Virus record (IMG/VR): IMGVR_UViG_3300031857_000007 | Reading direction: 5' to 3' (one strand) | Source of the DNA: a virus | Lineage: Duplodnaviria; Caudoviricetes | Length of the DNA stretch: 64,000 nucleotides | Program-made: the position numbers and the translations under genes | Shown here: positions 8,630-64,000 of the stretch, one piece after another | Numbering within the stretch: the first letter of the stretch is position 1 | Layout of the letters: every line of letters begins with the position of its first letter | Notes under the pieces: model-generated | The model's database searches: none | Seen by the model: the letters and a program-made list of their open reading frames with translations, nothing else | What the model was told of the DNA's origin: nothing

Positions 8630-9031
8630 TTAGCTATTTCTATAAAGCTTCTCTAATATTTCTTTAGCATCATTAACACTAGAAATATATCCCATTTTTT
8701 TGCTAATATTTGTTTTCCTATCTTTTTTAGACGATCCGTTTTGAGATTCTCTTACATAGGATTGGTACATTATTATTATTTCAATATCTGAAGATTCGGA
8801 TATTGTTAGAACATCATCAAAGTTGATAATATACATATCTTCTTTACTTGTTTTAATCCATGGTTCTACTTTATATCCACCAAATCCAAATCTTGTTGTA
8901 ACTTCTGTAATTACAATCGGATTTGATAGGATCAGTAGAGTTCTATCTTCCTCTTCACTTGCAGCAACTTTTGCGAATATTTCTTCCCCAGACTTTAATT
9001 TAATTGTTGCATAAAAATCTTCTTCTATCAT
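8630..9031 (-). CDS. Conserved hypothetical protein (often labelled 'methylamine utilization protein' in cyanophages)
   Basis: EDFYATIKLKSGEEIFAKV N-terminus; conserved position between uvsW and gp55. Confidence 0.75.
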   Translation of the reverse strand: MIEEDFYATIKLKSGEEIFAKVAASEEEDRTLLILSNPIVITEVTTRFGFGGYKVEPWIKTSKEDMYIINFDDVLTISESSDIEIIIMYQSYVRESQNGSSKKDRKTNISKKMGYISSVNDAKEILEKLYRNS

Positions 9032-48623: not shown

Positions 48624-51128
48624 TTAGGCAAGTGCAATAACTCTTAATTGTCTAAATCTTGGAGGGTATGTTTGATTTGTTGAAGTTCCTATTAACTTAA
48701 CACTAAAATATCTAAATGCCGGTAATTGGTCTATAGTAAATTCATGCTCAATAAATTCAAGTTGATTGGCAAAAAATCCTCTTTTAGTGCTTTTTGGTCT
48801 TTTTCTGTCCGGTCTTCCACTATTTTTTGATGTATCGACAACTTTTTTGATAGTTTCTGGACTTGGAGAAATTGAAGTTTCTCCGACTATTGATAGATTG
48901 TCATATCCTGGGAATGGATAATAAATCAGTTCTTCTTTTGGATCGTTAGCAATTGCAAATAAAGCCCTTATATCACTATCCACATTTACATATGCATTTA
49001 CATATAATTTAATGGAAGTTGCTGGAGTTTCTAGTGAAATTGGTTTCGTTGCATATACAAATGCGGTTGGATCATCTTTAAGAGTAGACACTCTCTCATC
49101 TTCTACATAATCTTCAATGACATTATTAATTCTATTAGACGTTAAAATCATACCAGATCTATGAAGATCTATAACTGGAGAAATATAAGTATTTGCTGTC
49201 AATAGTCTCATATTTAAAGTAAATGATTTTTTGCCTGGCAGTGTAGACAGTTTACTATTTTCATTTACTTTAGAGCATATTAATCTTGGCGAATTTAAAT
49301 AATTGTTCGCATTTAAATTAATTTCTTCAAAACCCTGATCTGAGAAAGACTCTTCATTTCCGCTTACACTTGTTCCACTAACAGTTCTTATTGAAGCATT
49401 TATTTTAGTTCCATTAAGAGTTAATGTTTCGATATTTGGTCTAATAATTTCATATTGTATATTTTGTGATGCATTAACTCTAGATCCACCTGCAGATTTT
49501 GTTTCATTCAAATATAACTTAGGAAAACTTGCTCCTGTAGATCTATCAATGCCATTAGAACTAGTATCTATTTTTATATGATAATGATCAAGTCCTATAG
49601 ATTCACTAACAGTAGAGTCGCCAAGACTATGATCTTTATTAATCCTCCTCAATGAAACTGATCCAAGTTCATATTTGTATATTTGAGTTCCTGTTGTATA
49701 AGAAGACGCAACGGTTTGGTCAACGGATCTTGTTATTCCAGTTAAAGCGCCAGTAGAAGTTCCTGAGTATGAAATAATTTCATCTCCAATTCTTGCGTAT
49801 CCTAAATTGGATGTTCCAACTCCAACATTTTCAAATGTACCAAATACTGATTCATCTTCGACTAAGATATCTGCAGTTGAAGATAGATCATAATTTGCCA
49901 TTAATTTTGACGGAATTGTATCTGGCAAAACATTTGAAATCGAAACAGTATTTGTAGGTGAGTGCATTCCATGATTTTTGTGATTTACTTTAATATGTAA
50001 ACCATCACTTTGAAGTTCGATTGTACTTGCAAGAACGTTAGATCCCGTTGCCTTTAGATCCGTAGTTATTCCAGAATTATTTACATACTGCAAAGTATTT
50101 CCTACACCAGTCAAAAATTCTCCTTGAACCTGGTCTACGATAAGTTCATTAATTCCTGATAGAGAACTTACCGATAATCTAATATTTCTTCCTAATGTAT
50201 CATTTCCAATTTGATTTGCGGTTAGGATATCACCAACAATATATCCTGTTCCGCCAGATTGAATTGTTGCAGCAACAGCAACACCATTAGATATATGAAT
50301 ATTTGCTGTCGCATTTTTGCCGGTACCAGTCACACTAGTTAAAGCTACTCCAGCAAAAGTTCTATTTCCCGAAGACGGTGTATATCCAATTCCAGCATTT
50401 ACAATTGTTAAATTTCCACTGCAAGATCCTGCATATCCAACATAATTAGCAGTTACACTAGAATTTCTTTGGACAATTGTATTTCCTAGTGTTGGTAGAT
50501 CACTTGTCGATAAAGTTGTCCCCAATCCAACTTTAACTTTCCTCGAATTTAAAAATAGTGGTCTTTTTACTAATCTTGCTACTTCTCCATTTCCTGTAGA
50601 TAAATCTGGATTGTAAAAATTTACATCTCCAATTACACCAAAACTAGCTCTATAAAGTTTGAACTTTAAATCGTCAAAATCACTTGGATTCCAAGTTATT
50701 CCATTTTGTGATTTAAAAATAGAACCAGAAAGAGGTTGTTTTGTTACTACAATTTGTTTAGATTCTAGTTGAGTTTGTGACTCGGTATCAATCTCTCCCA
50801 ATCTAGATAACCAGACTAGATACTCACTTGAGTTTGATAACAAACATATACAATGAAATTCTGATCCAGATAGATAAATCGGTGACTTGAATGTTACTCG
50901 CGTGGCCACTGATCCATCGTCGGATACATTTACATCTTTAGGATCTACTACAATCTCACTAAATGGATATACTTTATTCGATGGAAACCCCAAATTCATT
51001 GGTCTCAATTGAACCGTTACTGGAAGTTCCGGATCTTTGGAGAAAAAATAAAGATCAACAGAAGTTACAAATATTCCACTCTTTGGCTCTACATAAAAAG
51101 ATTGTGCTAATGGATCTACTAGTTTCAT
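48624..51128 (-). CDS. Virion structural protein, C-terminal part of a DUF4815-like family (834 aa)
   Basis: Starts MKLVDPLAQSF...TSVDLYF...LPVTVQLR, a motif I recognise as internal in full-length homologues; ends PPRFRQLRVIALA. Confidence 0.75.
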   Translation of the reverse strand: MKLVDPLAQSFYVEPKSGIFVTSVDLYFFSKDPELPVTVQLRPMNLGFPSNKVYPFSEIVVDPKDVNVSDDGSVATRVTFKSPIYLSGSEFHCICLLSNSSEYLVWLSRLGEIDTESQTQLESKQIVVTKQPLSGSIFKSQNGITWNPSDFDDLKFKLYRASFGVIGDVNFYNPDLSTGNGEVARLVKRPLFLNSRKVKVGLGTTLSTSDLPTLGNTIVQRNSSVTANYVGYAGSCSGNLTIVNAGIGYTPSSGNRTFAGVALTSVTGTGKNATANIHISNGVAVAATIQSGGTGYIVGDILTANQIGNDTLGRNIRLSVSSLSGINELIVDQVQGEFLTGVGNTLQYVNNSGITTDLKATGSNVLASTIELQSDGLHIKVNHKNHGMHSPTNTVSISNVLPDTIPSKLMANYDLSSTADILVEDESVFGTFENVGVGTSNLGYARIGDEIISYSGTSTGALTGITRSVDQTVASSYTTGTQIYKYELGSVSLRRINKDHSLGDSTVSESIGLDHYHIKIDTSSNGIDRSTGASFPKLYLNETKSAGGSRVNASQNIQYEIIRPNIETLTLNGTKINASIRTVSGTSVSGNEESFSDQGFEEINLNANNYLNSPRLICSKVNENSKLSTLPGKKSFTLNMRLLTANTYISPVIDLHRSGMILTSNRINNVIEDYVEDERVSTLKDDPTAFVYATKPISLETPATSIKLYVNAYVNVDSDIRALFAIANDPKEELIYYPFPGYDNLSIVGETSISPSPETIKKVVDTSKNSGRPDRKRPKSTKRGFFANQLEFIEHEFTIDQLPAFRYFSVKLIGTSTNQTYPPRFRQLRVIALA

Positions 51129-51170
51129 TTTTTTATCTGTTGATTTTTACTCAAGTTTATTACTATTAAT

Positions 51171-51178
51171 TATTTATT
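51171..51178 (-). promoter_or_regulatory. Late promoter variant AATAAATA for the 834-aa gene
   Basis: Intergenic, 43 bp upstream of the ATG at 51128. Confidence 0.6.
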
Positions 51179-51185
51179 TTTCTAG

Positions 51186-51587
51186 TTAAATAAAATTTTC
51201 AGCATTTTCTTCTCCATAATTTAAAGTCAATTCCTCACCAGCATCAATATCCCTAATAGCATAATGCCTCATTACTTCATTTACTTTATCTATTTCATAA
51301 TCTACATTTGGATCAAAACTATGATTATACAATCCACAAAAACCCATTCCTATAATACTAAATTCATTATCTAAATTGTAACTATAACTTACACAAGAAG
51401 GAGCATTATTTAATTCTTCTAAAGGTACTTTAAAGTAAGGAAATTCCTCTAAAATTTCATATTTTTTTATTGAATCTTTTGCAAAAACTCCCCATCTATG
51501 TATATTTGATCTTTGGACTATCATTTTTTCCGAAAATATCAAATCATTTAAATGCATTGACTTGAAAGACTCAACATTTCTTCTCAT
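51186..51587 (-). CDS. SET-domain methyltransferase (minimal, 133 aa)
   Basis: SNIHRWGVFAKDSIKKYEILEE, YNHSFDPN and AIRDIDAGEELTLNYG are the canonical SET motifs. Confidence 0.9.
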   Translation of the reverse strand: MRRNVESFKSMHLNDLIFSEKMIVQRSNIHRWGVFAKDSIKKYEILEEFPYFKVPLEELNNAPSCVSYSYNLDNEFSIIGMGFCGLYNHSFDPNVDYEIDKVNEVMRHYAIRDIDAGEELTLNYGEENAENFI

Positions 51588-51853
51588 ATAGTTTGACCAA
51601 TAATTTTTTTTAATGAATCCATCTCTTGCTTCATTTCCTTTAATGCTTCAATGATAACAGGAATTAGTTGTTTGTAATCAACAGCAAGATATCCATTATC
51701 TTGCATTTCGACCATTTCAGGAAATTCTTTTTGGACTTCTTGTGCTATAACTCCATAAGAATTTCCTGTCACACCGGTTATTTCTTTCATTTTATTATTC
51801 CACTCATAATATTTTCCATTTAATCTTGTTATTTTATCAAGATACAATCCCAT
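51584..51853 (-). CDS. Stand-alone C-terminal part of a peptidase S74 chaperone domain
   Basis: LDKITRLNGKYYEW...YGVIAQEVQKEFPEMV...LAVDYKQLIPVIIEALKE plus coiled coil; lacks the S-D-x-x-x-K start. Confidence 0.88.
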   Translation of the reverse strand: MGLYLDKITRLNGKYYEWNNKMKEITGVTGNSYGVIAQEVQKEFPEMVEMQDNGYLAVDYKQLIPVIIEALKEMKQEMDSLKKIIGQTI

Positions 51854-54800
51854 TATTTCAGATTAATACTAAACAATCTATTTAGTGCATTATTGATAGG
51901 TTGAATGTTGGTTTTTAAATTAATGTCACTCATACCCATACCACCACCACCACTACTACCGCCGCCACTGCTGCCGCCACTCATTCCTCCACCACTGCTA
52001 CCACCACTACTACCGCCGCCACTGCTGCCGCCACTCATTCCTCCACCACTGCTACCACCACTACTACCGCCGCCACTGCTGCCACCACTGCTGCCGCCAC
52101 TCATTCCTCCACCACTGCTACCTCCGCCACCGCCGCTCATAGAAGCTCCGCCAGCAGATCCGCCATTATTTCCACCACCACCACCACTCATAGAACCACT
52201 AGAATTTCCTCCTCTATTGCTCGAATTTGAATTGGAAGTCACAAATCCACCAGAACCAGAACTCATATTACTTCCACCACCCATAGAACCACCTGATATA
52301 ACAATACTTGTACCAACAGATCTAGTATTATTTTTGCCAACAAATCCGTCTTTAGATCTTTGAGTAGTCGTAACTTGTTGACCTACAGTAACTGACCTAT
52401 TAGTTCCTCCAGTTCTACTTACATTTGCAATAACTTTAGTATCAGTATTTCTAGATTTTACTCCAGACTGACTTAAAATATTATTCAGTTTTTCATCGCT
52501 AACAATTCTAGCATCTAACTTATCTTGTCTAATATCCTTATCTCGGGTCTTCCTCTCAAATCTTATATCGGCTGCAGTAAGAGTAACACCTTGTTGAGCG
52601 AATATTTGTTTAGCCTCTTGGGTGGAAATGCTCTTCTTAGATTCAAGTTCAGCATAGTTGTATTCTTTTCCTTGATATGTAACGGTTTGAAGTTCAACGG
52701 CAACTGTTTTTCCAGTTCCTCTTGCAGTTGTCAATAGGTACTCTACACCAGTTGTTGGTGCGACTGGAGGATTGGGAACATCAACTGGTTTAGATAGAGG
52801 AGTATCATTATCACCTCTTCCACCACCACTAACTGGTGCGGGAGAAGGAGGAATTGAAGGAACATTGATTGGAGTAGTTTCTACAACAGTATATCCATCA
52901 GAAACAACCGAAGTTGCATCGATGACTGTTTGGTTTTCAACTCTAACATTTCTTAAAGAAAGAACATTTTCTTGAGCCTTATTAACTTTACCTTCTGCAT
53001 AGAATTTTTCTTCTGCACTAGTAATACTTCCCTGTACTTGAGAATTTAGATTGCTACTTGTCAATCTGAATAATTTTGTTCCTGTTGTAAAATAAGGATT
53101 TGTATTGATGTTTGGATTTGGAATATAGAAAGATCCTATTATAACCCCAATACTATCAGTAATTAATCTGACATCTGCAACTGTTGCTTCAGCTCCGCTA
53201 GTTTGTCCTTTTAACTTCATTCCTGGAAGAACATATCCATAATATAAACCCTGTGATTGATATGCTAAACTATATGTGTCTACATTTAGAGTAGTTGAAG
53301 TTGTAGAATACTCAGAAGGTAAAAATTCGTTTCTATTATATGGATTTGAAACATAGATATCTGAAGGATTATTATATGGACCATACTTATGATTAGAAGA
53401 ACTTACTCTAAAAGATATTGAAGGACTTTCTTGAGTATCTTGTGAAGAACCTTCGATATAACCTTTAACAGTTTCTCCAACTACAAATGATCCAAACTGC
53501 ATAGAAACTTCAATTAGTTTTGGAACAATAAATCTATTAATATCCTTTCCGTCAAAAAACGCATATACTCTTGTAGAGGGTTTTAATCTCTTTGCAACAA
53601 ATTCAATATTTCTAGATCTCATGTATGGAATTATATCCGTACTTAGAATCTTATCGCCAAGAGAAACTGTACTAAATTCTGCTTTAGTGCTAGTTCTTAA
53701 TCCTTTTCTAGCGGCTGTTCCACTAGCCAATGTAATATCATACGTTTCTTGGAAAGTATTGCCATACTCATCTTGAACAACTTCAGTTTGAGTTTGTTTA
53801 GTGGTTCCTGTCCAATTAGTTTCCCAAGATCCCCAAATTACGGGTCCAAAACCAGTTTGCTTATCTAAATCAGCAATGCTGATTTGAGAGAAAGTTTCTG
53901 TATAATTGCCTTGTACATTAATATTATTCGCTGACAATCTTACAGTATCAACCCAAATATCAGAAGAAGGTGTTAACTCTATGGTACCATTGTAATAAGC
54001 AACTCTATATGGAGCAACACTTTCAACTCTTGTGCCATAAGGTTGATCTATTTCTAAAACCTCAGTATAATCTAGTGTTATTACATCGCCAGTTCTCTTA
54101 ATTCCAGTTCCAATCAAATCGGTCACATATCCAAGATCTGCTGTTGGATCATATACTCCATCAATTCCAACAAATGAAGTTGATCCTAAAAGTAAGTCAA
54201 TTGAAGTTGTATAAGGAGAAGGTCTTAGTTCTGAGTTTTTGACATCAATACTATTCTTTACTATCGTTTTCTTTAGTTGAGACTTAGTATCTGAAAAATC
54301 ATCGACAAAGAAACCGCACTTAAATCGGTTCAATCCATTTGTGTCTCTAATTTGTAGATTGGAAGTATCACTTTCCAGAAGAGACAATGAAGTATAGTAT
54401 TCTAGATTTTTAATTCTATTTTCTAAACTAGAGATATCAACCATTCTATATCTCTTATGCTCCATCATGCTTATGTTAATGGAACTTAGATCACACAAAT
54501 ATGCGGGAAGTAGCATTGTTGCAACTTCTATAGCATCATCTGCTGGTAGTGGTGGTTGAGGATTATCTGAGGGTTCTCCTTTACTTAACTGCAAATATCC
54601 TTCTTTAGTTAAGAAAATTTTATCTATTCTAGGCAAATAATAAGAATAATCTAATAGTATTGACTCATCTGAAGCTAAAATATTAGATGCAGAATTTCCG
54701 CTAGAAGTAAATGATCTTGCCAAAAACTCAAATGGTGATCTGGATCCAGAAGTTACGGAATAATTTGATACTCTAGGTCTAATATCAATAATATCACTTG

Positions 54801-57800
54801 ACTTAACTCCATTAATTGCAGGTAAATCACAATAATCAAATTGGTTATATGAATTTATTATTGTAATATCCCCAGTGTCTGATGGCAGATAACTTGCAGA
54901 CTCAAACAATATCTTCAATCTTCTTGTTGGCTCTGAAGATGTAGTCTTTCTTACTATTCTGGAGTAATCATAAATCGTATTTGTCTGACCATTTTCAAAA
55001 GTAAAACTATTTGTAATATTCTGATCTCCAGATTCTACTTCTGTTATTATTGCTTGTATTCCAGATTCTTTAAATTTTACGGTTTCACCAACTTTAAATC
55101 TATTCTCGTTTAAGTATATTAAAGAAATTTTTAGATCATTTAGTTTTTCAGAATAGATAGCTACTGCATTACTTTCTTTTCCTACAATTTCTTCTCCAAT
55201 CAATAAATCGCCAGTTTTATTTGTTGGACCGGAAAGAGATATCATACTAATCGCAGGAAGATCTGGATTAGATGTATCATTGGACTCAAAAATACCAATT
55301 ATTTTGGTTACATCTGGTTCCATCAAGCATATGTCACTATCCTGAACTCTAGTGCCATATGGATAATTTCCATATGTCAATCCGTCATTAAATGTAGTTG
55401 ATCCGATTCCAGATCCTTCGTATTTTGATTTGTCAATTATAATTGATCTTACTCTATTTCTATTCTTAACCTTTTCTTTGATGTTAACTTTTCTTAGAGT
55501 TGCTATTAATCTAGCAGTTGTATTTGACCCTAATCCATTTATTGTAAGTTCTGTAGATCCGGAAGTAAATACAAATTTATCTGCACTTAAATTTTCTGTT
55601 TGTCCATCATATCTTATCAATACGTATCTTTCTTCATCAAATGGTAAAAAGGTTTCATTACTTCCAGCAACTATAGTTCCCGTTGAATTTGATGTGATAT
55701 TGACAATAAATTCTTTTCTGATGGTTAAATTTGAATTCTCTAAATCTACAGAAGATATGTTTTGATTTGGTAATACTGTATATAAAGTATTATCGGTTGA
55801 AGACTGGAATCTTGAAGTTAAGATATTAAAATCGCTAGGATTAATAATTGTTGTTGGCAAATCTCCTTCACATACACCAATAACTTTGTTTACTGCACTA
55901 ATTCGGATAGAATTTTGAAATACTGCCTCTATTCTTGCGTATGAGACTGTGGACAACCCAGGATTAGAGTAAGATACAATATTTCCTACTGTAGCTATAC
56001 CGGAAAATATAAATGACGAGGAAGAAACAGTGCTTATTCCACCACTTCCTGCAGTTATATTTACTTGTCCAATATTAATAGAAGGATATTGTTTTACATC
56101 TGCAGTAAAAGTTGAAGCAGAACCAACAACTCCATACAGAGATTTGATGTCATTTGGATAATAATCCGTTATTGCTGTAGAAACTCTGCTTATACTTTCG
56201 GTACCATTGAATATAATTTTTTCGCCAACTATAAAATTACCTTTGGTATTGTATGCAGTAATGATACCAGAATTGCTAGCATCAAATCTTAAAAATCCAA
56301 CAGCTCCGCTAGATTTTCCTTTAATATGAACAGAATTACTTAAAGATATTGGTTCATTTAAAAATATTTCAGTATATGTTTGAATATCATAAAGAGATAT
56401 ATCCCACTCATTAATATCTGGATATGCTGTACTATATGATCCCGATTCTAAAGCAAAATCATATACTCTTGCGAGTCCAATCTCTTTTCCTGAAGCAGTT
56501 TTTTGATCAGATCCAATCCTAGAATTTCTTAAACTTAAAGTATATGAAGTTGCAATCCCTAAGCTTGGGGATCCATAAACTCTATTTAAGGTAAATGTTG
56601 GTCCGGTTACATAATTAATACTTCTATTTTGTAATTTTTTAGTTGTCCTAGGCTTTTCAAAATCAATAAAAGTTGGAGATATGGTTTCTATCTCATATCC
56701 TCTAACAAAAGCTTTTAGTGGAGATATTTTGTAAGTACCAAGATCCTCTGAAGGTACTTTTCCATCATATGTTATCTGATCTTCTGTAAATAACCCATTG
56801 TTGCCCTTAAGATCGTTTAATGATTCTTGTACACTTAGTTTTGGTTGTACTACATAATAATCACCAGACTCTTCATAAGTCCTTCTGGCAAGTTCTTTTT
56901 GTAAAATATTATATTGTGGAGTATTAGATACTGATCTAAGAACACCATTCTCAACTTCTAGAAGTTGAACAAAATTTTCAACATCTTTTACACCTAAAGG
57001 AACCTTAGAAATTACTGCTTTTATAGATAATCTATCGGCACCTGGAGCAGAATAATTCGAAAATCCCTGTGCATTATCATTCAGCGATTTATCTTTATCT
57101 GAAGTAATAATATCTTCAAAGATTTCAAATCCAACTTTATAACTAGGAGTATTTGAGTATTGGTCTAATAGTATTGTTTGTTCTGGTACTTCAACAAAAC
57201 AACCTCTTAAAAAGTAAACTCCAGAAGAAATTATAACCGCAGAAGAAGGTGAATTACAATCTACAGAAATTGTGGACGCAATTCCCTCTCCATCTTGAAA
57301 TATTACTGATTGTTCTCTATTTAAAGAACTTTTTGTTGTTAGTGCCCCTTCAATTAATAAAATTTCTCCATCAGCAAATCCTTCATAACTATTAGTTTGA
57401 GAATCTGAATTTAAATAGTTTACATATAATGTATTATTTCCTCGATCCGAATTTGTAAAGTCTAGTACACCAATTACGGTTGCTCTTACTCCAGAATTCT
57501 GGCCCCTAAGAGTTCTTCCAATTAAACTTGGCAAATATGCAATAACATTGGTTCCCAAATACAAATTCTGAAGTTCAACAGCTTTATAACTATCAACATA
57601 GTTTACGCCACCAGGAATTACAACAGAACCTTCCTTGAAAAAATGATTTCCAAATTGTTCAATTTGATTTTGTAAAATGGATTGAATTGTTGTTAATTCT
57701 CTAGCTTGTACAGGGTACCCTGGTTTAAATAGTACCCTATAGTATCCATTTATTGCATCAAAATCATCAAAATAAGGTGATACATTGAGATTAGTTTCCT

Positions 57801-57807
57801 GGGGCAT
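51853..57807 (-). CDS. Large virion structural protein, N-terminal part of a DUF4815-like family (1984 aa), ending in a Gly/Ser linker and an S74 start motif
   Basis: MPQETNLNVSPYFDDFD...VQARELTTIQSILQNQ; APGADRL; directly after gp8; C-terminus ...GGGMGMSDINLKTNIQPINNALNRLFSINLK. Confidence 0.8.
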   Translation of the reverse strand: MPQETNLNVSPYFDDFDAINGYYRVLFKPGYPVQARELTTIQSILQNQIEQFGNHFFKEGSVVIPGGVNYVDSYKAVELQNLYLGTNVIAYLPSLIGRTLRGQNSGVRATVIGVLDFTNSDRGNNTLYVNYLNSDSQTNSYEGFADGEILLIEGALTTKSSLNREQSVIFQDGEGIASTISVDCNSPSSAVIISSGVYFLRGCFVEVPEQTILLDQYSNTPSYKVGFEIFEDIITSDKDKSLNDNAQGFSNYSAPGADRLSIKAVISKVPLGVKDVENFVQLLEVENGVLRSVSNTPQYNILQKELARRTYEESGDYYVVQPKLSVQESLNDLKGNNGLFTEDQITYDGKVPSEDLGTYKISPLKAFVRGYEIETISPTFIDFEKPRTTKKLQNRSINYVTGPTFTLNRVYGSPSLGIATSYTLSLRNSRIGSDQKTASGKEIGLARVYDFALESGSYSTAYPDINEWDISLYDIQTYTEIFLNEPISLSNSVHIKGKSSGAVGFLRFDASNSGIITAYNTKGNFIVGEKIIFNGTESISRVSTAITDYYPNDIKSLYGVVGSASTFTADVKQYPSINIGQVNITAGSGGISTVSSSSFIFSGIATVGNIVSYSNPGLSTVSYARIEAVFQNSIRISAVNKVIGVCEGDLPTTIINPSDFNILTSRFQSSTDNTLYTVLPNQNISSVDLENSNLTIRKEFIVNITSNSTGTIVAGSNETFLPFDEERYVLIRYDGQTENLSADKFVFTSGSTELTINGLGSNTTARLIATLRKVNIKEKVKNRNRVRSIIIDKSKYEGSGIGSTTFNDGLTYGNYPYGTRVQDSDICLMEPDVTKIIGIFESNDTSNPDLPAISMISLSGPTNKTGDLLIGEEIVGKESNAVAIYSEKLNDLKISLIYLNENRFKVGETVKFKESGIQAIITEVESGDQNITNSFTFENGQTNTIYDYSRIVRKTTSSEPTRRLKILFESASYLPSDTGDITIINSYNQFDYCDLPAINGVKSSDIIDIRPRVSNYSVTSGSRSPFEFLARSFTSSGNSASNILASDESILLDYSYYLPRIDKIFLTKEGYLQLSKGEPSDNPQPPLPADDAIEVATMLLPAYLCDLSSINISMMEHKRYRMVDISSLENRIKNLEYYTSLSLLESDTSNLQIRDTNGLNRFKCGFFVDDFSDTKSQLKKTIVKNSIDVKNSELRPSPYTTSIDLLLGSTSFVGIDGVYDPTADLGYVTDLIGTGIKRTGDVITLDYTEVLEIDQPYGTRVESVAPYRVAYYNGTIELTPSSDIWVDTVRLSANNINVQGNYTETFSQISIADLDKQTGFGPVIWGSWETNWTGTTKQTQTEVVQDEYGNTFQETYDITLASGTAARKGLRTSTKAEFSTVSLGDKILSTDIIPYMRSRNIEFVAKRLKPSTRVYAFFDGKDINRFIVPKLIEVSMQFGSFVVGETVKGYIEGSSQDTQESPSISFRVSSSNHKYGPYNNPSDIYVSNPYNRNEFLPSEYSTTSTTLNVDTYSLAYQSQGLYYGYVLPGMKLKGQTSGAEATVADVRLITDSIGVIIGSFYIPNPNINTNPYFTTGTKLFRLTSSNLNSQVQGSITSAEEKFYAEGKVNKAQENVLSLRNVRVENQTVIDATSVVSDGYTVVETTPINVPSIPPSPAPVSGGGRGDNDTPLSKPVDVPNPPVAPTTGVEYLLTTARGTGKTVAVELQTVTYQGKEYNYAELESKKSISTQEAKQIFAQQGVTLTAADIRFERKTRDKDIRQDKLDARIVSDEKLNNILSQSGVKSRNTDTKVIANVSRTGGTNRSVTVGQQVTTTQRSKDGFVGKNNTRSVGTSIVISGGSMGGGSNMSSGSGGFVTSNSNSSNRGGNSSGSMSGGGGGNNGGSAGGASMSGGGGGSSGGGMSGGSSGGSSGGGSSGGSSGGGMSGGSSGGGSSGGSSGGGMSGGSSGGGSSGGGGMGMSDINLKTNIQPINNALNRLFSINLK
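51925..52280 (-). repeat. Gly/Ser/Met low-complexity linker with an exact 54-bp tandem duplication
   Basis: Unit gccactgctgccgccactcattcctccaccactgctaccaccactactaccgcc starts at 51964 and again at 52018; a degenerate third copy follows. Confidence 0.9.
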
Positions 57808-57813
57808 AACCGT

Positions 57814-59367
57814 TTAGAATTGCAAAATAACTTTTATATCTTCTTTTTGATTTGAAGACCTTGTTATTGAAGGTCTATTGTCAACATAAATTATATTTCC
57901 AGAATATTTTTTAACTTCTGGATCAGAAACTCCATCGACAAAAGTTTGTCCAAGATAATATGTCCTACTATTTATTGTAGTTGAGACACCACTAAAACTT
58001 GTGTCTATACCTAGATTGACACTTCCTCCATAAATTGTTAGCGAACCTCCGGATATTGGATTTGCACTAAATTCATTCATATCATATCCATAGATTGGTG
58101 TCGTATTTCTTGATCCATCACTATTAAAACCAACAAGAGTTCTATCTTGCCAGTATTTAAGAACTCCAGTGTCTTGGTCATAGAAAACAACCCTACCAAC
58201 AGCCGTTATGCCAAGACCTATAGTTTGAGTAATAAAACTATTTTCAGTAAAGACCGCTGTGCTATATCCACTACCAACAAGTTTTAATGCTGACAAACAA
58301 CTTGCTTTAGATAAAGTCAATATTGAATCCGAATTAAAACTTTCTGGATTTTCTATAATTCCAATTCTAGCAATCTTATTGCCTACAACAAAATCTGGAT
58401 TTTGTATATCATTTTCAATTCTAGAATAAATTAAGATATTGTATGCGCCCAGTTCTCGGTATATGTCATATCCATGTCCACCTTTTGGTGGAATTATTAA
58501 ATCAAACGTTGGTCTTGTAGAACCAGTTGGAACATTTCCAGATTCCAAATCAATTGTTCCGTATGTATATCCAGATCCACCTTTAGTTATCGTAACAGTA
58601 TCAACTTTAGAATCATTATTGACCACAATAGTAGCTTCTGCTCCAGATCCATCACCCTTAATAGGAACCCTGGTATAAACTCTATTTGCAGTTCCTATAC
58701 CAATACCTCTATTGGTAATAACTGCAATTTTTAGTTGACCACTAGTAGAAGCATTGTCCCTAACTGCAAAATTTTCTGCACTATTTTCCCAATCTGTTGG
58801 AACGGGAATAAAATTAATAGAATCAAATTTTACAATGTCACTTGGTTTAATTGTATAGAGATATTTCCACACATATCCATCTCCACTAGAACCTGCAGAT
58901 CTTGGTTCTAAGTCCGTAAATGTTGGTTCGTCTAAAGATGGTCTTCCTGTAGGATTTTCTGGATCTGTTCCATTATGTAGACAAATATACACTCTAAAAT
59001 CACTATTTACAACATAAAAATTTGAAGAATATATACTAGTAGCATTTGAAGGTTTAGATGTATTTGTCCTGCTAATATCATGACGATACATATCATAAGT
59101 GGTTCCGGAAGACCATGTTATTTTTCTAACCACTTGACGCACATCGTCACTTCCAATTTTTTTTAATGCTACGATAGTATCCCAATAATCGGATTCTTCG
59201 TTAAAATTATCTTTAGGTGCAAGTGGTGAAGTATCCCAAGTGGAACTATAATCTGTTGCATTGGTCAAACCAACAAATGCATAATAAGAATTTGCTGAGG
59301 AAGTTGCTGCAGAAACAAAATTTTTTGCATTTAATATTCTAAATTGATCAGTTATAATTGCAGACAT
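57814..59367 (-). CDS. gp8: Baseplate wedge subunit gp8
   Basis: MSAIITDQFRILNA, YDMYRHD, DGYVWKYLYTI, C-terminal KYSGNIIYVDNR...QKEDIKVILQF. Confidence 0.92.
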   Translation of the reverse strand: MSAIITDQFRILNAKNFVSAATSSANSYYAFVGLTNATDYSSTWDTSPLAPKDNFNEESDYWDTIVALKKIGSDDVRQVVRKITWSSGTTYDMYRHDISRTNTSKPSNATSIYSSNFYVVNSDFRVYICLHNGTDPENPTGRPSLDEPTFTDLEPRSAGSSGDGYVWKYLYTIKPSDIVKFDSINFIPVPTDWENSAENFAVRDNASTSGQLKIAVITNRGIGIGTANRVYTRVPIKGDGSGAEATIVVNNDSKVDTVTITKGGSGYTYGTIDLESGNVPTGSTRPTFDLIIPPKGGHGYDIYRELGAYNILIYSRIENDIQNPDFVVGNKIARIGIIENPESFNSDSILTLSKASCLSALKLVGSGYSTAVFTENSFITQTIGLGITAVGRVVFYDQDTGVLKYWQDRTLVGFNSDGSRNTTPIYGYDMNEFSANPISGGSLTIYGGSVNLGIDTSFSGVSTTINSRTYYLGQTFVDGVSDPEVKKYSGNIIYVDNRPSITRSSNQKEDIKVILQF

Positions 59368-59380
59368 TTTTAACGTTTTT

Positions 59381-59388
59381 TATTTATT
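59381..59388 (-). promoter_or_regulatory. Late promoter variant AATAAATA for gp8
   Basis: At the gp7 stop, 14 bp upstream of gp8. Confidence 0.55.
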
Positions 59389-62300
59389 TATGAATTATAA
59401 TTAAAGTATCTCAATGGATTTAATCTAATTAAAATTGGATTAGTTGACAAACCAGTTGTTCCATTGTTATTGTACGAATTAAATGCTGTTGGATTAGTTC
59501 TGCTATTTGTAGAAACTTTTCCCCAACTATAATTGCCATAGTATCCTGTGTTAGCAATTCCTGTTAACCCATTATAAGAAGAAACTGAAGTTATGACTCT
59601 TGAAACATAAGTTACACCTATACCAGGTATACTTCTTGTTACATTAGAAACAGAAATAACCTCATAAACATTGTCCAGAAACTCCGTGCCAACGCCAACG
59701 ATAGATTTATCTCTCCTTAAAGAAGTTACACCATTTCCAACATTTGATTTATTTACTACGAAATAATATCCAGTAGAAATTCCACTAATTGTTATTGCTG
59801 TTCCTACAATCGAAGAATTTCTCAATATTGAATTTTGTGGAATATAGAAATCAAATGCAATAGCAGTGGAAGCAACTCCAACTACTGAAGTTGTTGCAAC
59901 ACCAACAATTCTTCCAAAATCACCCTCATATGAAACATATTCAATAATCTCTGAAATTGGTTCTGGATCTTCAATTAAAACAACAGGAGGATTTGTTGTT
60001 GTATATCCAATTCCACCATAATTTATTTGAATTGAAGTTACTACTCCCGCAGAAATAAATGCATTTGCAGAAGCTCTTAGAGTGGTGCCCAATCCGACAG
60101 GATTTGCAATAGTAACTGTTGGATTTGTTGAGTATCCAATTCCGCCACTTGTAATATTAATAGAACTTATCGTTCCTGCAATTGATACTATTGCGGTACT
60201 AGCAGCCGATACTTTTTGATCTTGTGAAGTCAATTTGACTGTGTAGTAGATTGAAGAAGATGTATTCTCCTTAGCACTATCAAAGAATGACTTAACACTT
60301 TCCACAAAAATAAATGTAGATCCTACTCCAACACTTTGTATTATATTTGTTGATGGATTTACTAAGGGTTCATACCATTCTCTGTTTTTGGAAATTTGTA
60401 TGCCGTCAATAATAACATCCTCTGTTTGTCTGCACCAGATTACAGGTCTTAAAAGATTTCTATTTGAAGAAACACCAATATTAGAATATGGGTTTGTCAA
60501 AACACTATCCGAAGAATTAACTCTTGTGACCAATCTATTTGTTTGATTTAAACTAAGATCTTCACTATAAATTCTTAACTGATCTCCAACTTTAACAGTT
60601 TCTAAAATATCAACAGAAACTACATCGACACCTTCAGTTCCCTTATAGAAAAGAATTTTAGAAGTATCTCCTGCTCTAGGTGCTTCTACAAACTTGATAA
60701 TGCTTCCACCTTCAAATATGTAGGATTGTCCTGGTGTTTGTAAAATATCATTTATAAACACTAGCAGTGTAGATTCTACATTAATGTTTGATCCTTTTTT
60801 GGATCTTATTGACTGTTGAACTCCATCAATTTTTATTGGGAAAGTATTAACTTGACCATCAAATAATTCATCTATATTATCAATAACTTGAAAACTTCCA
60901 AGAGACCAACCATTAAACTGGTCATTATAAATTCTATCGATTGATAATTCAAATGGTTGAAGATTCTTTGTTATATCTGTTGGAATGCCAGTGGATCCAC
61001 CATACTCAATAGTTAATTTTTCACCCTGACCGTATCCATACCCATTATTTTGTATCTCAAAGTCAATGATACTTGATCCTTGTCCAACTACAATACTAAT
61101 AGTTGCTCCAGTACCAAATCCAGGAGTTGAATTTGTGGAATAAACTAAAGGAATATTTGAATATGATAATGGAGAATCAAAAATTACCTTTGGTGGATTA
61201 CTTGAAGTATATCCAATTCCAGGATTTGTTATTGAGACACGAACAATATTTCCATTACTAACTGAAGCAAATCCAACATAGGTTATATTTGTAGAAGTTA
61301 ATGATTCTGTATACACACCAACATTAACAGTTGTTTGAATTCCAGATCTATATCCAGATCCACTATTTCCAATACTTATTGCTGAGATTGTTCCTGCAGA
61401 AGAAACGATTGCAGTTCCACCTGCAGCAACAAGAGGTTGATATCCAAAACCTTTAGTGGAACCAACAGAAACAATCTGTCCTCCGAATGGTAAATTTGTG
61501 CTAGTAATATCATCTGGATCATATGATCCATTAAATGTTATTGAAGTTATACCTGCATTTTCTGTTAATGTATAGTCTCCTACAATATCAACTACTCCAA
61601 GTCTTTGTGGTCCTTGGAATATTTGATTGATCAGAATTACCGCATTATCTGAAGAAATTCCTGAGATATTTTTGCCTTCTGATCTTAATGTAAATGTTGA
61701 CTTAATTCCAGTAAACCCTTCAGAAATATCGTCAAAAATATAATTTTTACTATAAGGATCACTTGTAGAATTTGTAGCGGAAGACCTCATAAAAGATCTA
61801 CCACTAAATGTTGAATGAGTAGTTATTCCTGTATAGTCTCTATCATCTGGTCTATTACTATCAGTTCCTATAGGAGATTTTCCATAAGGTGCTTTAAAGA
61901 AATTAATAGTATTTCCAACAATATTATAATCTCCTAATATCTTTTTAATTAAACTGCCAACAGTGTGAATTCCAATATTTGTACCCATCCAACCACGTTG
62001 GACTTGTACAATATTAGTACTTCCAAGTCCTACAGTATTCAATCTCATAATTTCATCATCGACCATAATTAAGTCATCGCTGAAGAATGAAGTAATTCCT
62101 GAGAATTTGACTCTATCATCAACGATTTCAACTGTTTTCGCGCATGTCGTAGTAATAGAAGAACCAACAATAGGAGATTGAATTACATTATCAATTGTCA
62201 CTAATACTCTAGAATTTTGTCTCTTAGAAGTAAATGAGTGAACAGTTCCGATACCAAGTGAATTTAATTGCAGTGGAATTGGAACAGCCTTTAAAGCATC

Positions 62301-64000
62301 TGTTGCAGAAGCAGCAACTCTTATATCTAAGTCACTTACTTTAATTGCATAAATTGATCCTGGCAATTTATTGGTTATTCCTATTCCGGGAATTGATATT
62401 GCAGTTGTAATTCCAATAGATTGAGTATTTCCAATTCCAGGAGAAGAATATTGGAGTTCTTCGCCAGTAACAAAATAATGTTCTGGAATTCTTATAGTAT
62501 TATTTGTAATATTAACAACGCTTGAATCGGTGCCGTCAAAATAACGCTTAAAGATTTCTCTACCGCTGCTAGTTAATTCAAAAGATCTTCTAACATCTCT
62601 TTCAGTACCTTCATATGATCCATAATTACTCTTTATAAATCCATTATTCAAATCAATATTATTTGTTGCTATTCCCTCATCCAATGGTTTCATTGCAACT
62701 TGGAATATTCTAACCTGTGCATTAATATTTGGATTTGGCGTAAAGTATAAATTAGTTTGATTTCCTGAAATGTCAGATCCAAAAGTTCCAAGTCCACTAT
62801 GAGTTTCTACAATTCCAAATTCTGTAATTGAGGTTGTATTGAAAACTGTCTCATCAACAACAACCAATTCTGAAATCTGATATCTACTATTGGTTGTATC
62901 TTCGACAGAAGCAATATAATATGCACCAGAATAATCACTAGAATAACTTGAAACTAAGTTTTGAGTTGGGGCAGATGTAGAAGCTATAGAGACATAATTA
63001 GAACTTAATGAAGATGTGCTCAATATTGCAGTTCCTGTACCAACAGAACCACTTGTATTTGCCGCAAAAGATATTGCCATAGTGTTTATGGTTGCAGCTA
63101 CTCCTGGATTTGGTATAAATTCTACTATTAGTCCAGGACCAGACAAATATGCATTATATGTACCCAGACCACTACTTGCATATGCATTTCTTGAGTGATT
63201 TGTAATTTGACCATATTCTAAGAGATCTACATTTGTTCCATCGTGAATAGCAGTTAGTTCATCGTATTCATATATGTCATTATTAGATTCTATTTGTACT
63301 AATATTTTTGTTGAACGATATGTAGATGCTATCGATACGATTGTTGAGGGAGTGGACGAAGAAGCATTAACATTACTGGTCGATAATCTTATAATATCTC
63401 CAAAATAAGAGGTAGAAGTTGCTGTAACGTCGTCTTTTAAATTAAATGACAGAAGACTAATATTATAGTCATTAACTGTATACTTAGAAGGATAAAATAG
63501 TAAATTGCCCTCATCGCCATTTACAGTGAAGTCAAATGATCCCAGATCTTCTAGATAACTTTCGACTCTTCCGTATTGATTTAAATACCCAAAATCATTA
63601 TCATATAGTAAAGAAACTAATAGAATTTGTCTATCCGAACTAAATCTCTTATCTCTTACATATGTAATATATTTTCTAGATCTGGAGTCATTCATTCTAA
63701 ATGTATCAACAATAGAAAATGGAGTTGATCTAGGAACACTCTTGAATGTGTCACTAAAATCATCTATCTCTAATACTCTATTTCCTATTGATTGGAGATA
63801 ATCTTGTATCTCTTTCGATGTAAAGACTATATCAGTTGAAATTATATTATTATCATTATTGATCGTTTCTTCAAAAACTAAATCATAATCGTAAATGTGA
63901 TTTAGATTAATTGTAGAAGAAAAATCGCAGATTCCATAAAAATCTCCATTATCTTGAGAGGTTTGTATGCCAACATAATCCAAATCTCTTGTTTCTATAA
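59388..64000 (-). CDS. gp7: Baseplate wedge initiator gp7-like protein, 5'-truncated by the window edge
   Basis: The frame is open to base 64000 (the track's TTG start at 63983 is internal). Large protein directly upstream of gp8 with G-x-GY repeat domains, as in cyanophage gp7. Confidence 0.75.
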   Translation of the reverse strand, partial: IETRDLDYVGIQTSQDNGDFYGICDFSSTINLNHIYDYDLVFEETINNDNNIISTDIVFTSKEIQDYLQSIGNRVLEIDDFSDTFKSVPRSTPFSIVDTFRMNDSRSRKYITYVRDKRFSSDRQILLVSLLYDNDFGYLNQYGRVESYLEDLGSFDFTVNGDEGNLLFYPSKYTVNDYNISLLSFNLKDDVTATSTSYFGDIIRLSTSNVNASSSTPSTIVSIASTYRSTKILVQIESNNDIYEYDELTAIHDGTNVDLLEYGQITNHSRNAYASSGLGTYNAYLSGPGLIVEFIPNPGVAATINTMAISFAANTSGSVGTGTAILSTSSLSSNYVSIASTSAPTQNLVSSYSSDYSGAYYIASVEDTTNSRYQISELVVVDETVFNTTSITEFGIVETHSGLGTFGSDISGNQTNLYFTPNPNINAQVRIFQVAMKPLDEGIATNNIDLNNGFIKSNYGSYEGTERDVRRSFELTSSGREIFKRYFDGTDSSVVNITNNTIRIPEHYFVTGEELQYSSPGIGNTQSIGITTAISIPGIGITNKLPGSIYAIKVSDLDIRVAASATDALKAVPIPLQLNSLGIGTVHSFTSKRQNSRVLVTIDNVIQSPIVGSSITTTCAKTVEIVDDRVKFSGITSFFSDDLIMVDDEIMRLNTVGLGSTNIVQVQRGWMGTNIGIHTVGSLIKKILGDYNIVGNTINFFKAPYGKSPIGTDSNRPDDRDYTGITTHSTFSGRSFMRSSATNSTSDPYSKNYIFDDISEGFTGIKSTFTLRSEGKNISGISSDNAVILINQIFQGPQRLGVVDIVGDYTLTENAGITSITFNGSYDPDDITSTNLPFGGQIVSVGSTKGFGYQPLVAAGGTAIVSSAGTISAISIGNSGSGYRSGIQTTVNVGVYTESLTSTNITYVGFASVSNGNIVRVSITNPGIGYTSSNPPKVIFDSPLSYSNIPLVYSTNSTPGFGTGATISIVVGQGSSIIDFEIQNNGYGYGQGEKLTIEYGGSTGIPTDITKNLQPFELSIDRIYNDQFNGWSLGSFQVIDNIDELFDGQVNTFPIKIDGVQQSIRSKKGSNINVESTLLVFINDILQTPGQSYIFEGGSIIKFVEAPRAGDTSKILFYKGTEGVDVVSVDILETVKVGDQLRIYSEDLSLNQTNRLVTRVNSSDSVLTNPYSNIGVSSNRNLLRPVIWCRQTEDVIIDGIQISKNREWYEPLVNPSTNIIQSVGVGSTFIFVESVKSFFDSAKENTSSSIYYTVKLTSQDQKVSAASTAIVSIAGTISSINITSGGIGYSTNPTVTIANPVGLGTTLRASANAFISAGVVTSIQINYGGIGYTTTNPPVVLIEDPEPISEIIEYVSYEGDFGRIVGVATTSVVGVASTAIAFDFYIPQNSILRNSSIVGTAITISGISTGYYFVVNKSNVGNGVTSLRRDKSIVGVGTEFLDNVYEVISVSNVTRSIPGIGVTYVSRVITSVSSYNGLTGIANTGYYGNYSWGKVSTNSRTNPTAFNSYNNNGTTGLSTNPILIRLNPLRYFNYNS

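What the first reader, a model, noticed from the sequence alone, without database searches (positions are those of the whole stretch)
51584..51935. Naturally split peptidase-S74 'intramolecular' chaperone that may act in trans
Seen: the 1984-aa protein ends with the S74 start and its Ser/Lys motif (SDINLKTNIQPINNA-LNRLFSINLK*). The next ORF begins at a TAATG overlap with MGLY-LDKITRLNGK-YYEW and contains the rest of the domain. The ten residues LNRLFSINLK and LDKITRLNGK align, so this segment is duplicated and diverged rather than broken by a single-base error. Known: S74 domains normally fold trimeric fibres in cis and self-cleave at S-D-x-x-x-K. Inference: a two-piece chaperone/autoprotease that reassembles by fragment complementation, conceptually like a split intein, on a protein that is not a typical fibre.
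Basis: partly seen in the sequence, partly recalled or inferred. Interest (0 to 1): 0.8.

Follow-up and report, generated by a model that had tools for sequence, protein, structure and literature searches.

The report
Split self-cleaving phage chaperone domain
In a group of uncultured freshwater and marine T4-like phages, a fold-and-self-cut domain that normally sits in one piece at the end of tail proteins is encoded in two pieces: a 25-residue tag on a large baseplate protein and a separate 89-residue protein. This gives a natural system for testing whether the domain works in trans.

Summary
On the minus strand, a 1984-aa ORF ends in the first 25 residues of a Peptidase_S74 (ICA) domain, including the Ser/Lys dyad. 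An 89-aa ORF starting at a TAATG overlap carries the rest of the domain, and one short helix is present in both pieces.

It is not an error. Contigs from four independent studies bridge the junction unchanged. Twenty-two distinct related junctions, plus one more distant pair, show the same split, with the small ORF in either alternative frame. Both pieces are under purifying selection, and Ser and Lys are invariant in 21 tails. The split forms make one clade apart from the fused S74 domains. A 3:3 model scores 0.84 against 0.00 for the best control, though likeness to solved ICA trimers may inflate that.

New context: the module sits at the hinge of a VrlC/DUF4815 baseplate gene that is a single ORF in cultured cyanophages. 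Here that gene is cut into an N part (with linker and tag) and an 834-aa C part. The same tag-plus-partner pair also serves an unrelated client family.

Cleavage and chaperoning are inferred, not shown. I found no published description. Earlier notes of this scan report split S74 tags in other genomes. Verdict: a real, conserved new variant of a known domain.

The parts
51853..57807 (-). Client gene (1984 aa). It is the N part of a VrlC/DUF4815-type baseplate protein, followed by a low-complexity linker and the S74 tag.
   Evidence: PF16075 DUF4815 E 1.9e-56 and phrog_358 profile positions 1-1411 of 2056. Residues 1-1675 align to residues 1-1703 of the single 2603-aa gene of Synechococcus phage S-SCSM1. 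PDB hit to the 1152-aa DUF4815 protein of the Staphylococcus phage 812 baseplate.
51931..52890 (-). Linker of about 320 residues (Pro-rich, then Gly/Ser-rich) between the conserved N part and the tag. It includes a 54-nt tandem repeat at 51946-52130.
   Evidence: Relatives have Gly-, Pro- or KGDG-rich linkers of different sequence. Public contigs break in the repeat.
51856..51930 (-). S74 tag ('cable'): 25 residues from the catalytic Ser (P0001 residue 1960) with Lys at +5. The TAA stop follows at 51853-51855.
   Evidence: PF13884 positions 1-25. S, D, L, K, N, I, I and L are invariant in 21 tails. pN/pS 0.14-0.28.
51865..51885 (-). Helix copy A (LNRLFSI) at the end of the tag.
   Evidence: Aligns to fused-HMM positions 16-22. 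The LNRL motif is conserved in most tails. It lies in the confident interface of the complex model.
51584..51853 (-). Partner gene (89 aa): the rest of the S74/ICA domain, comprising helix copy B, the beta 'donut' and a C-terminal coiled-coil helix.
   Evidence: PF13884 positions 17-57, E 2.5e-9. 76 clusters of stand-alone 59-150 aa relatives, mostly 83-96 aa. AlphaFold model pLDDT 84.4. Foldseek top hit is MyRF ICA 7dc3 (TMq 0.78, E 9e-5), followed by endoNF 3gw6/3gud.
51821..51841 (-). Helix copy B (LDKITRL) at the N-terminus of the partner.
   Evidence: Fused-HMM positions 16-22. dN/dS 0.17-0.33. Confident helix at residues 3-8 in the monomer model. Residues 1-9 are not in the confident interface with the tag.
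51186..51587 (-). SET-domain gene (133 aa), joined to the partner gene by an ATGA overlap. It is an accessory present in only one subclade.
   Evidence: PF00856 E 9e-14. Present in the window, L004 and L007-L018 and absent in L019-L031.
48624..51128 (-). C part (834 aa) of the same ancestral VrlC/DUF4815 gene, now a separate gene starting MKLVDPLAQSF.
   Evidence: phrog_358 profile positions 1421-2055. Aligns to S-SCSM1 residues 1782-2603 and S-RIM2 residues 1643-2402. It follows the partner gene in all 22 VrlC-type loci except L021.
57814..59367 (-). gp8-like baseplate wedge gene, upstream context.
   Evidence: PF09215 and phrog_438. Cultured Kyanoviridae have the same order: gp8, then the VrlC gene.

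Best explanation
This is a conserved two-gene version of the S74 intramolecular chaperone / autocleavage (ICA) domain. The client protein is the N part of a VrlC/DUF4815 baseplate protein. It ends in a long flexible linker and a 25-residue tag that holds the catalytic Ser-x4-Lys 'cable' and a short helix. The next gene is translationally coupled to the client gene and makes the remainder of the domain: a helix, the beta 'donut' and a C-terminal coiled coil. Inferred mechanism: three partner subunits trimerise through their coiled coils, and each donut takes up one client tag. This rebuilds an ICA trimer and ties three client chains together at their C-termini. The Ser/Lys dyad then cuts the chain just before the Ser, releasing the mature client. 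The tag peptide stays with the partner, so the partner is probably used once, which fits 1:1 coupled translation. What is shown: the split, its conservation, selection on both pieces, the invariant dyad, the ICA fold and a confident in-silico 3:3 interface. What is inferred: binding in the cell, trimerisation help and cleavage. Origin (inferred): a linker-plus-S74 module was placed at the hinge of an ancestrally single VrlC gene, cutting it into N and C genes. The S74 domain itself became split, with a duplicated helix.
For: Real and conserved: 76 clusters of stand-alone relatives, nearly all 64-96 aa, at 61-85% identity. All 25 closest IMG/VR loci and 2 metagenome loci are split, and every relative at 53% identity or less is fused. 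The start codon (21 ATG, 1 GTG) lies -17 to +7 nt from the client's stop, with the small ORF in the +1 frame (9 loci) or the +2 frame (13 loci). Contigs from four studies are identical across the junction. Selection: cable pN/pS 0.14-0.28, partner body dN/dS 0.06-0.15, partner helix 0.17-0.33, tail helix about 0.5. Catalysis-related residues: Ser and Lys are invariant in 21 tails. Y16 and W18 of the YYEW strand are invariant in 35 partners; these correspond to MyRF Y615/Y617 next to the cleavage site (PMC8326128). Single origin: the split forms lie on one side of a 99/99 branch, and no fused form above 57% identity was found. [quoted passage not shown] Complex model: score 0.84, best of 3 controls 0.00. 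That mark was reached by 58 of 80 solved complexes and 2 of 110 mismatched pairs; the counts hold only roughly because I used my own alignments and multi-copy chains. The runs agree in at least 72% of contacts, and partner pLDDT is at least 83. The Ser and Asp of the tag contact partner residues 36-38 and 55-58, and the Lys region contacts residues 16-19. Portability: the same pair follows an unrelated GP38-like/Hint client in L005 and L029/L030. Gene interruption.
Against: No experiment, RNA or proteome data bear on it. The complex model may score high from memory of solved ICA trimers, as halves of a split domain tend to, so it shows likeness rather than binding. About 320 disordered residues separate the folded N part from the tag, so the classical role of nucleating a triple beta-helix directly upstream cannot apply as such. 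Why both pieces keep the helix is unexplained. In the model only the tag's copy is in the confident interface, yet a divergent pair (L089) has almost lost the tag's copy.
Confidence: 0.72

Rival explanations
1. The tag and the 89-aa protein assemble but do not cut. The reconstituted trimer would stay on the virion as a permanent trimerisation knot at the end of the linker, like a foldon.
For: Binding is what the model supports; cleavage was never tested. The long linker means removal is not obviously needed. In one search, MyRF mutants other than S587A/K592A still cleaved, most of them partially, so residues can be conserved for structural reasons.
Against: Ser and Lys are invariant in all 21 tails across 61-85% partner identity, as are the aromatic residues next to the scissile bond. 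In characterised S74 domains these two residues are the catalytic dyad.
Confidence: 0.13
2. The small protein is a free trans-acting chaperone whose main clients are other proteins, such as the 834-aa C part or other fibres. The tag on the 1984-aa protein would be secondary.
For: The C-part gene follows directly in 21 of the 22 VrlC-type loci (all but L021). The module occurs with two unrelated client families.
Against: Every small ORF examined has a tag-bearing ORF ending within 17 nt upstream. Five related virus records and the window's own record each hold exactly one tag and one partner. The C part has no S74 motif.
Confidence: 0.08
3. Programmed recoding (frameshift, hop or read-through) joins the two ORFs into one ordinary S74 domain.
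For: T4-type phages are known for gene 60 bypassing (my own knowledge). In the window, the last sense codon AAA recurs at codon 14 of the small ORF.
Against: The small ORF is in the +1 frame in 9 loci and the +2 frame in 13. Distances range from -17 to +7 nt. 12 of 22 loci have no matching landing codon. All have their own ATG or GTG start. The partner's N-terminal helix, which a hop would skip, is conserved at the protein level (dN/dS 0.17-0.33).
Confidence: 0.02
4. It is an assembly or sequencing artefact, or a decaying pseudogene.
For: Assemblies do break in the nearby Gly/Ser repeat.
Against: Four independent studies give the same junction. There are 22 distinct junctions with the same architecture, and both pieces are under purifying selection.
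Confidence: 0.02

Closest known systems
Peptidase S74 / C-terminal intramolecular chaperone (ICA, CIMCD) domain: K1F endosialidase endoNF (PDB 3GW6/3GUD), phage T5 and S16 fibres, MyRF ICA (PDB 7DC3)
   Same: Sequence family PF13884, the Ser-x4-Lys dyad, the aromatic strand beside the cleavage site, the fold (Foldseek 7dc3 TMq 0.78) and the C-terminal coiled coil. The predicted cable-in-donut arrangement also matches.
   Different: It is encoded as two polypeptides with the break between the cable/helix and the donut. One helix is present in both pieces. It sits behind a disordered linker of about 320 residues rather than directly after a beta-helix. It lies at the break of a split baseplate gene rather than at the end of a fibre.
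Separately encoded tail-fibre chaperones placed just downstream of the fibre gene (T4, R-type pyocins, Alteromonas phage V22 gp27; PMC7289586)
   Same: A small downstream gene expected to help trimerisation from the C-terminal end and not to stay in the final structure.
   Different: Per the discussion in PMC7289586, those chaperones are unrelated to S74 and involve no autoproteolysis. Here the helper is the missing part of the client's own self-cleaving domain.
Split inteins / fractured genes
   Same: A self-processing domain naturally divided into two polypeptides that must reassemble to act.
   Different: Unrelated fold and chemistry (Ser/Lys hydrolysis, no ligation). The client keeps only a 25-residue piece. 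The analogy is functional only.
VrlC-like virion structural protein of Kyanoviridae (S-SCSM1 gp19, 2603 aa; S-RIM2 _092, 2403 aa) and the DUF4815 protein of the Staphylococcus phage 812 baseplate (PDB 9EUF and others)
   Same: The client's N part and the 834-aa C part are collinear with these single proteins, and the gene sits in the same place after gp8.
   Different: Here the gene is cut at the hinge before DPLAQSF, and the linker, tag and partner (plus or minus SET) are inserted there. That the 812 protein is the trimeric 'tripod' protein is my inference; the paper's text does not use the name DUF4815.
   Same: The same idea of a split S74 domain with a portable tag. I also find two unrelated client families.
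   Different: The piece lengths differ (35+73 against 25+89), and it did not share sequence words with my protein. Whether it is the same clade was not tested.

Membership tests
Peptidase_S74 / ICA domain (PF13884) | Sequence match above the Pfam gathering score | tested here: met
   Partner 37.7 bits (cut-off 22). The tag scores 23.0 bits as a 45-aa piece but 16.6 bits within the whole protein. Together they cover model positions 1-57 of 58.
Peptidase_S74 / ICA domain (PF13884) | Catalytic Ser and Lys spaced S-x4-K at the start of the domain | tested here: met
   SDINLK in the window. Ser and Lys are invariant in 21 tails and also present in the divergent L089.
Peptidase_S74 / ICA domain (PF13884) | ICA fold: beta donut plus C-terminal trimerising helix | tested here: met
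   Model pLDDT 84.4 with helix 60-88. Foldseek hits: 7dc3 at E 9e-5 and TMq 0.78; 3gw6/3gud next, though not significant by E-value (0.28-0.47; prob 0.75-0.91).
Peptidase_S74 / ICA domain (PF13884) | Intramolecular: the whole domain is in one chain with its client | tested here: not met
   A stop codon and a new start divide the domain in all 27 loci of this clade and in L089. No fused close relative was found. Hence it is filed as a variant, not a standard member.
Peptidase_S74 / ICA domain (PF13884) | Trimer with each cable held by a donut | tested here: inconclusive
   The 3:3 model scores 0.84 against 0.00 for the best control (58 of 80 solved complexes and 2 of 110 mismatched pairs reach the mark). 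This is in silico only and possibly from memory of solved trimers.
Peptidase_S74 / ICA domain (PF13884) | Autocleavage before the Ser, and chaperone dependence of client folding | not testable with these tools
   Needs expression with Ser and Lys mutants.
Split inteins | Hint fold and protein splicing | tested here: not met
   Neither the tag nor the partner has a Hint match. The likeness is functional only.
VrlC / DUF4815 baseplate protein (phrog_358) | Collinear match over the whole profile in one gene | tested here: not met
   The profile is covered at positions 1-1411 by the 1984-aa ORF and at 1421-2055 by the 834-aa ORF. Cultured relatives have one gene.

The most novel reading that the evidence does not exclude
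The duplicated helix is a built-in placeholder. In the free 89-aa protein, its own N-terminal helix (copy B) would occupy the groove that the tag's helix (copy A) takes in the complex, keeping the partner soluble and closed until a client tag displaces it. That would be a helix-exchange step like donor-strand exchange in pilus assembly. If so, tag plus partner would be a portable, gated trimerise-then-self-cut module that phages move between unrelated virion proteins. It could also convert a covalent link between two halves of a baseplate protein into an assembly-controlled one.
Probability: 0.2. Interest if true: 0.8.

Novelty: new variant of a known kind. Interest (0 to 1): 0.62.

Why it matters
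S74/ICA domains are the textbook case of a chaperone that acts only within its own chain and then cuts itself off. A natural, conserved two-chain version lets three questions be tested directly. Can the fold-and-cut activity be supplied in trans? Which part carries catalysis and which carries trimerisation? Is the partner reusable? It also suggests a compact tool: a 25-residue self-removing tag that works only when an 89-residue helper is present. For phage biology, it shows how a large baseplate gene that is single in cultured cyanophages can be cut in two at a hinge and still persist in many lineages. It also shows that the tag-partner pair can move to other virion proteins.

Tried and rejected
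- **Cultured relatives:** blastn and tblastn against 50,697 phage records found no close relative. The best hit to the partner is 45.6% identical and fused, so no cultured phage carries this split.
- **'Longer' homologue search:** only 4 distant fused proteins, none above 57% identity.
- **Exhaustive profile search:** 72,115 S74 proteins at E<=0.001. The long proteins that scored near the top are ordinary fused proteins with two S74 domains, not fused intermediates. The short ones I checked are fragments, apart from P0087 and P0095.
- **Recoding:** no common frame and no consistent take-off and landing codons. Rejected.
- **Orphan tags:** the window's record and 5 related records each hold one tag and one partner. 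There is no sign here of one partner serving many tags, but all of these records are only 22-44% complete.
- **Expression:** no RNA holder listed.
- **Literature:** searches on S74, intramolecular chaperone, split, in trans and DUF4815 returned nothing describing a split S74 domain. The library lacks most subscription journals, so this is weak evidence of absence.
- **Shared domain in the linker:** blastp found nothing beyond the tag itself.
- **Tail-partner distance correlation:** Mantel r 0.70, 0 of 5000 permutations as high. This shows co-inheritance; I do not count it as evidence of co-evolution.
Full report
**1. What is there**

All genes discussed are on the minus strand.
- A 1984-aa ORF (51853..57807) ends with a Gly/Ser-rich linker, then Met-Ser-Asp-Ile-Asn-Leu-Lys and 19 more residues, then TAA.
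- The A of that stop starts an 89-aa ORF (51584..51853).
- An ATGA overlap leads from that ORF into a 133-aa SET-domain ORF (51186..51587).

Pfam PF13884 (Peptidase_S74) matches the tail at model positions 1-25 of 58 and the 89-aa ORF at positions 17-57. The two pieces together make one domain, and positions 17-25 occur twice. The window is part of a 94.9-kb IMG/VR virus record judged 44% complete. It has 34.5% G+C. The surrounding genes form a T4-type structural module: gp8-like wedge, neck proteins, sheath stabiliser, small and large terminase, sheath and portal. The same record also has an ordinary, unsplit S74 domain at the end of an 815-aa fibre.

**2. It is not an error**

The stretch 51100-52400 is held nearly word for word by 20 public runs from 15 studies, most labelled as lake, freshwater or fungus metagenomes. 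Contigs from four runs in four studies cross the junction with no differences and no gaps. Assemblies break only in the Gly/Ser repeat further upstream.

**3. It is conserved**

A word-indexed search found 76 clusters of stand-alone proteins, nearly all 64-96 aa, 61-85% identical to the 89-aa ORF. In IMG/VR, 408 stretches encode relatives. Of the best 80, the 25 at 61% identity or more are all split, and all those at 53% or less are ordinary fused domains at the end of long proteins.

For 22 distinct junctions, I extracted the upstream ORF. Every one ends with a low-complexity linker followed by S-D-x-x-L-K-x-N-I-x-x-I, usually then x-x-A-L-N-R-L, and stops 22-30 residues after the Ser. Every small ORF starts with Met plus 1-4 residues, then L-[DNEK]-[KR]-[IL]-x-x-[IL]-x-G-x-x-[YF]-x-W.

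The start codon (21 ATG, 1 GTG) lies between 17 nt before and 7 nt after the end of the client's stop codon. The small ORF is in the +1 frame in 9 loci and the +2 frame in 13. This pattern fits translational coupling. It argues against a frameshift, a hop (12 of 22 loci have no matching landing codon) or read-through.

A more distant stand-alone relative found by the exhaustive profile search (P0095) is also preceded by an ORF ending in S-D-R-R-L-K plus 12 residues.

**4. Both pieces are under selection**

Pairwise Nei-Gojobori counts over 20 junctions gave these values:

| Partition | Value |
|---|---|
| First 15 tag codons | pN/pS 0.14-0.28 |
| Tag's helix | dN/dS about 0.5 |
| Partner's helix | dN/dS 0.17-0.33 |
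| Rest of the partner | dN/dS 0.06-0.15 |

Ser and Lys of the dyad are invariant in 21 tails. In 35 partners, Y16 and W18 of the first strand are invariant. In the MyRF ICA structure, the equivalent tyrosines sit next to the scissile bond and are needed for correct cleavage (PMC8326128).

**5. The duplicated helix**

I built an HMM from 40 fused relatives only. It aligns each tail to positions 1 to 18-24 and each partner from positions 14-16 to 93-96. So about eight residues (consensus L-D-K-I-E-E-I-R) are present in both pieces across the main clade. In the divergent L089 pair, the tail stops after 18 residues, so the tag's copy can be cut short.

**6. One origin**

In a tree of 21 split and 43 fused domains, the split forms lie on one side of a branch with 99/99 support. 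The tree is unrooted and rests on few columns. A search for longer proteins found no fused form above 57% identity. The long high-scoring proteins in the exhaustive search carry two ordinary S74 domains each and are not intermediates.

**7. Fold and complex**

The partner alone models with mean pLDDT 84.4: helix 3-8, five short strands and two short helices, and a long helix 60-88. Its best structural matches are MyRF ICA (7dc3, E 9e-5, TMq 0.78) and then the endosialidase chaperone (3gw6, 3gud).

In MyRF, the chain is cut just before the Ser. The 'cable' carrying that site comes from the neighbouring subunit and threads through a 'donut' of strands, and the C-terminal coiled coil drives trimerisation. 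The natural break here falls exactly between the cable-plus-helix and the donut.

A 3:3 model (40-residue tail piece, 89-aa partner, my own alignments) gave a score of 0.84 against 0.00 for the best of 3 controls. That mark was reached by 58 of 80 solved complexes and 2 of 110 mismatched pairs in the tool's calibration, and these counts hold only roughly for this kind of job. The runs agree in at least 72% of contacts, and partner pLDDT is at least 83. In the model:
- The tag's Ser and Asp touch partner residues 36-38 and 55-58.
- The Lys region touches residues 16-19.
- The tag's helix touches the partner, including the start of the coiled coil.
- Partner residues 1-9 (its own helix copy) are not in the confident interface.

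Because solved ICA trimers exist, this pass may reflect likeness to them. It supports binding but does not show it.

**8.

PHROG family 358 (2056 profile positions) is covered at positions 1-1411 by the 1984-aa ORF and at 1421-2055 by the 834-aa ORF that follows the SET gene. In cultured Kyanoviridae, the gene after gp8 is a single ORF: 2603 aa in S-SCSM1 and 2403 aa in S-RIM2. The two window ORFs align to it end to end: 1-1675 with 1-1703, and 5-834 with 1782-2603. In S-RIM2 the corresponding spans are 1-1631 and 1643-2402.

The break falls at a hinge just before a conserved D-P-L-A-Q-S-F motif. S-SCSM1 has a long Pro/Arg-rich spacer at the same place. In 21 of the 22 VrlC-type split loci, the order is N part with linker and tag, then partner, then (in one subclade only) SET, then the C part. 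So the split S74 module sits where an ancestrally single baseplate gene has been cut in two.

The N part is related to a 1152-aa DUF4815 protein in the phage 812 baseplate structures. I infer this is the trimeric tripod protein, though the paper's text does not say so. A trimeric client would fit a trimerising module.

The same tag-partner pair also ends an unrelated client in L005 and L029/L030. That client is a GP38-like Gly-rich protein carrying one or two Hint-like domains. The module is therefore portable.

**9. Mechanism, with the status of each step**

Shown:
- two genes
- a start-stop arrangement that fits translational coupling
- conservation and purifying selection on both pieces
- an invariant dyad
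- the ICA fold

Supported in silico only:
- the 3:3 assembly with the cable in the donut

Inferred:
- The partner trimerises and gathers three client C-termini.
- The dyad then cuts before Ser1960.
- The 25-residue peptide stays with the partner.

The classical role, seeding a beta-helix immediately upstream, cannot hold as such, because about 320 disordered residues of variable composition lie in between. I therefore favour a role in bringing three chains together, followed by self-removal. Why the helix is kept twice is not explained; the placeholder idea is given under the novel case.

**10. Comparison, novelty and prior notes**

By sequence, dyad and fold, this is an S74/ICA domain. It fails the one defining feature of being intramolecular. 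I found no description of a split S74 domain in the searchable literature.

This scan has noted split S74 arrangements before on other DNA:
- e1-3447529: a 35-residue tag plus a 73-residue partner in cyanophages.
- e1-5403534, e1-5403549 and e1-5403560: first-reader notes on a 567-aa ORF plus an 84-aa ORF that shares sequence words with my protein.

I treat these as leads only. My own data independently show the family, its portability and the gene interruption.

Verdict: a real, conserved new variant of a known kind. Its function is still inferred.

Noticed in passing
window 51186-51587 (-): Minimal SET-domain gene (133 aa, PF00856 E 9e-14) joined by an ATGA overlap to the S74 partner gene, inside the virion structural module. 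It is present only in the subclade made up of the window, L004 and L007-L018. Its target is unknown.
   Followed up: partly
window 51946-52130 (-) within the 1984-aa ORF: A 54-nt tandem repeat (3.4 copies, 91% matches) encodes the Gly/Ser linker. Public contigs from four runs all break here, so the repeat number in the window may not be exact.
   Followed up: partly
L005:3758-5536 and L029:5544-6995: Second client family for the split S74 tag. It has a GP38-like Gly-rich N part, then two (L005) or one (L029) Hint/intein-like domains that start with Cys and end in S-H-N followed by Leu or Ile rather than Cys/Ser/Thr. These are flanked by Pro-rich linkers. A protein with two kinds of self-processing module.
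   Followed up: partly
window 25567-28014 (-): An 815-aa fibre-like protein with a complete, unsplit S74 domain (62 bits, model positions 1-58) in the same genome. The phage therefore uses both the fused and the split form.
   Followed up: partly
L021:1-2836: The end of a VrlC N part, with tag and partner, is followed here by unrelated ORFs (one of 409 aa looks terminase-like by eye) instead of the C part. This is a different genomic arrangement of the same module.
   Followed up: no
L024:7001-7333: The partner ORF is 110 aa, with a C-terminal extension of about 25 residues not seen in the others.
   Followed up: no
window 28064-37603 (-) and 59388-63983 (-): Very large structural genes: 3179 aa (tail-fibre family phrog_5342) and more than 1531 aa (baseplate wedge family phrog_2885). 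The second runs off the window.
   Followed up: no
L087 (S-SCSM1) locus positions about 8700-9000: The single VrlC gene of the cultured phage S-SCSM1 carries a long Pro/Arg-rich spacer exactly at the hinge where the window's gene is cut. The hinge seems to tolerate insertions.
   Followed up: partly
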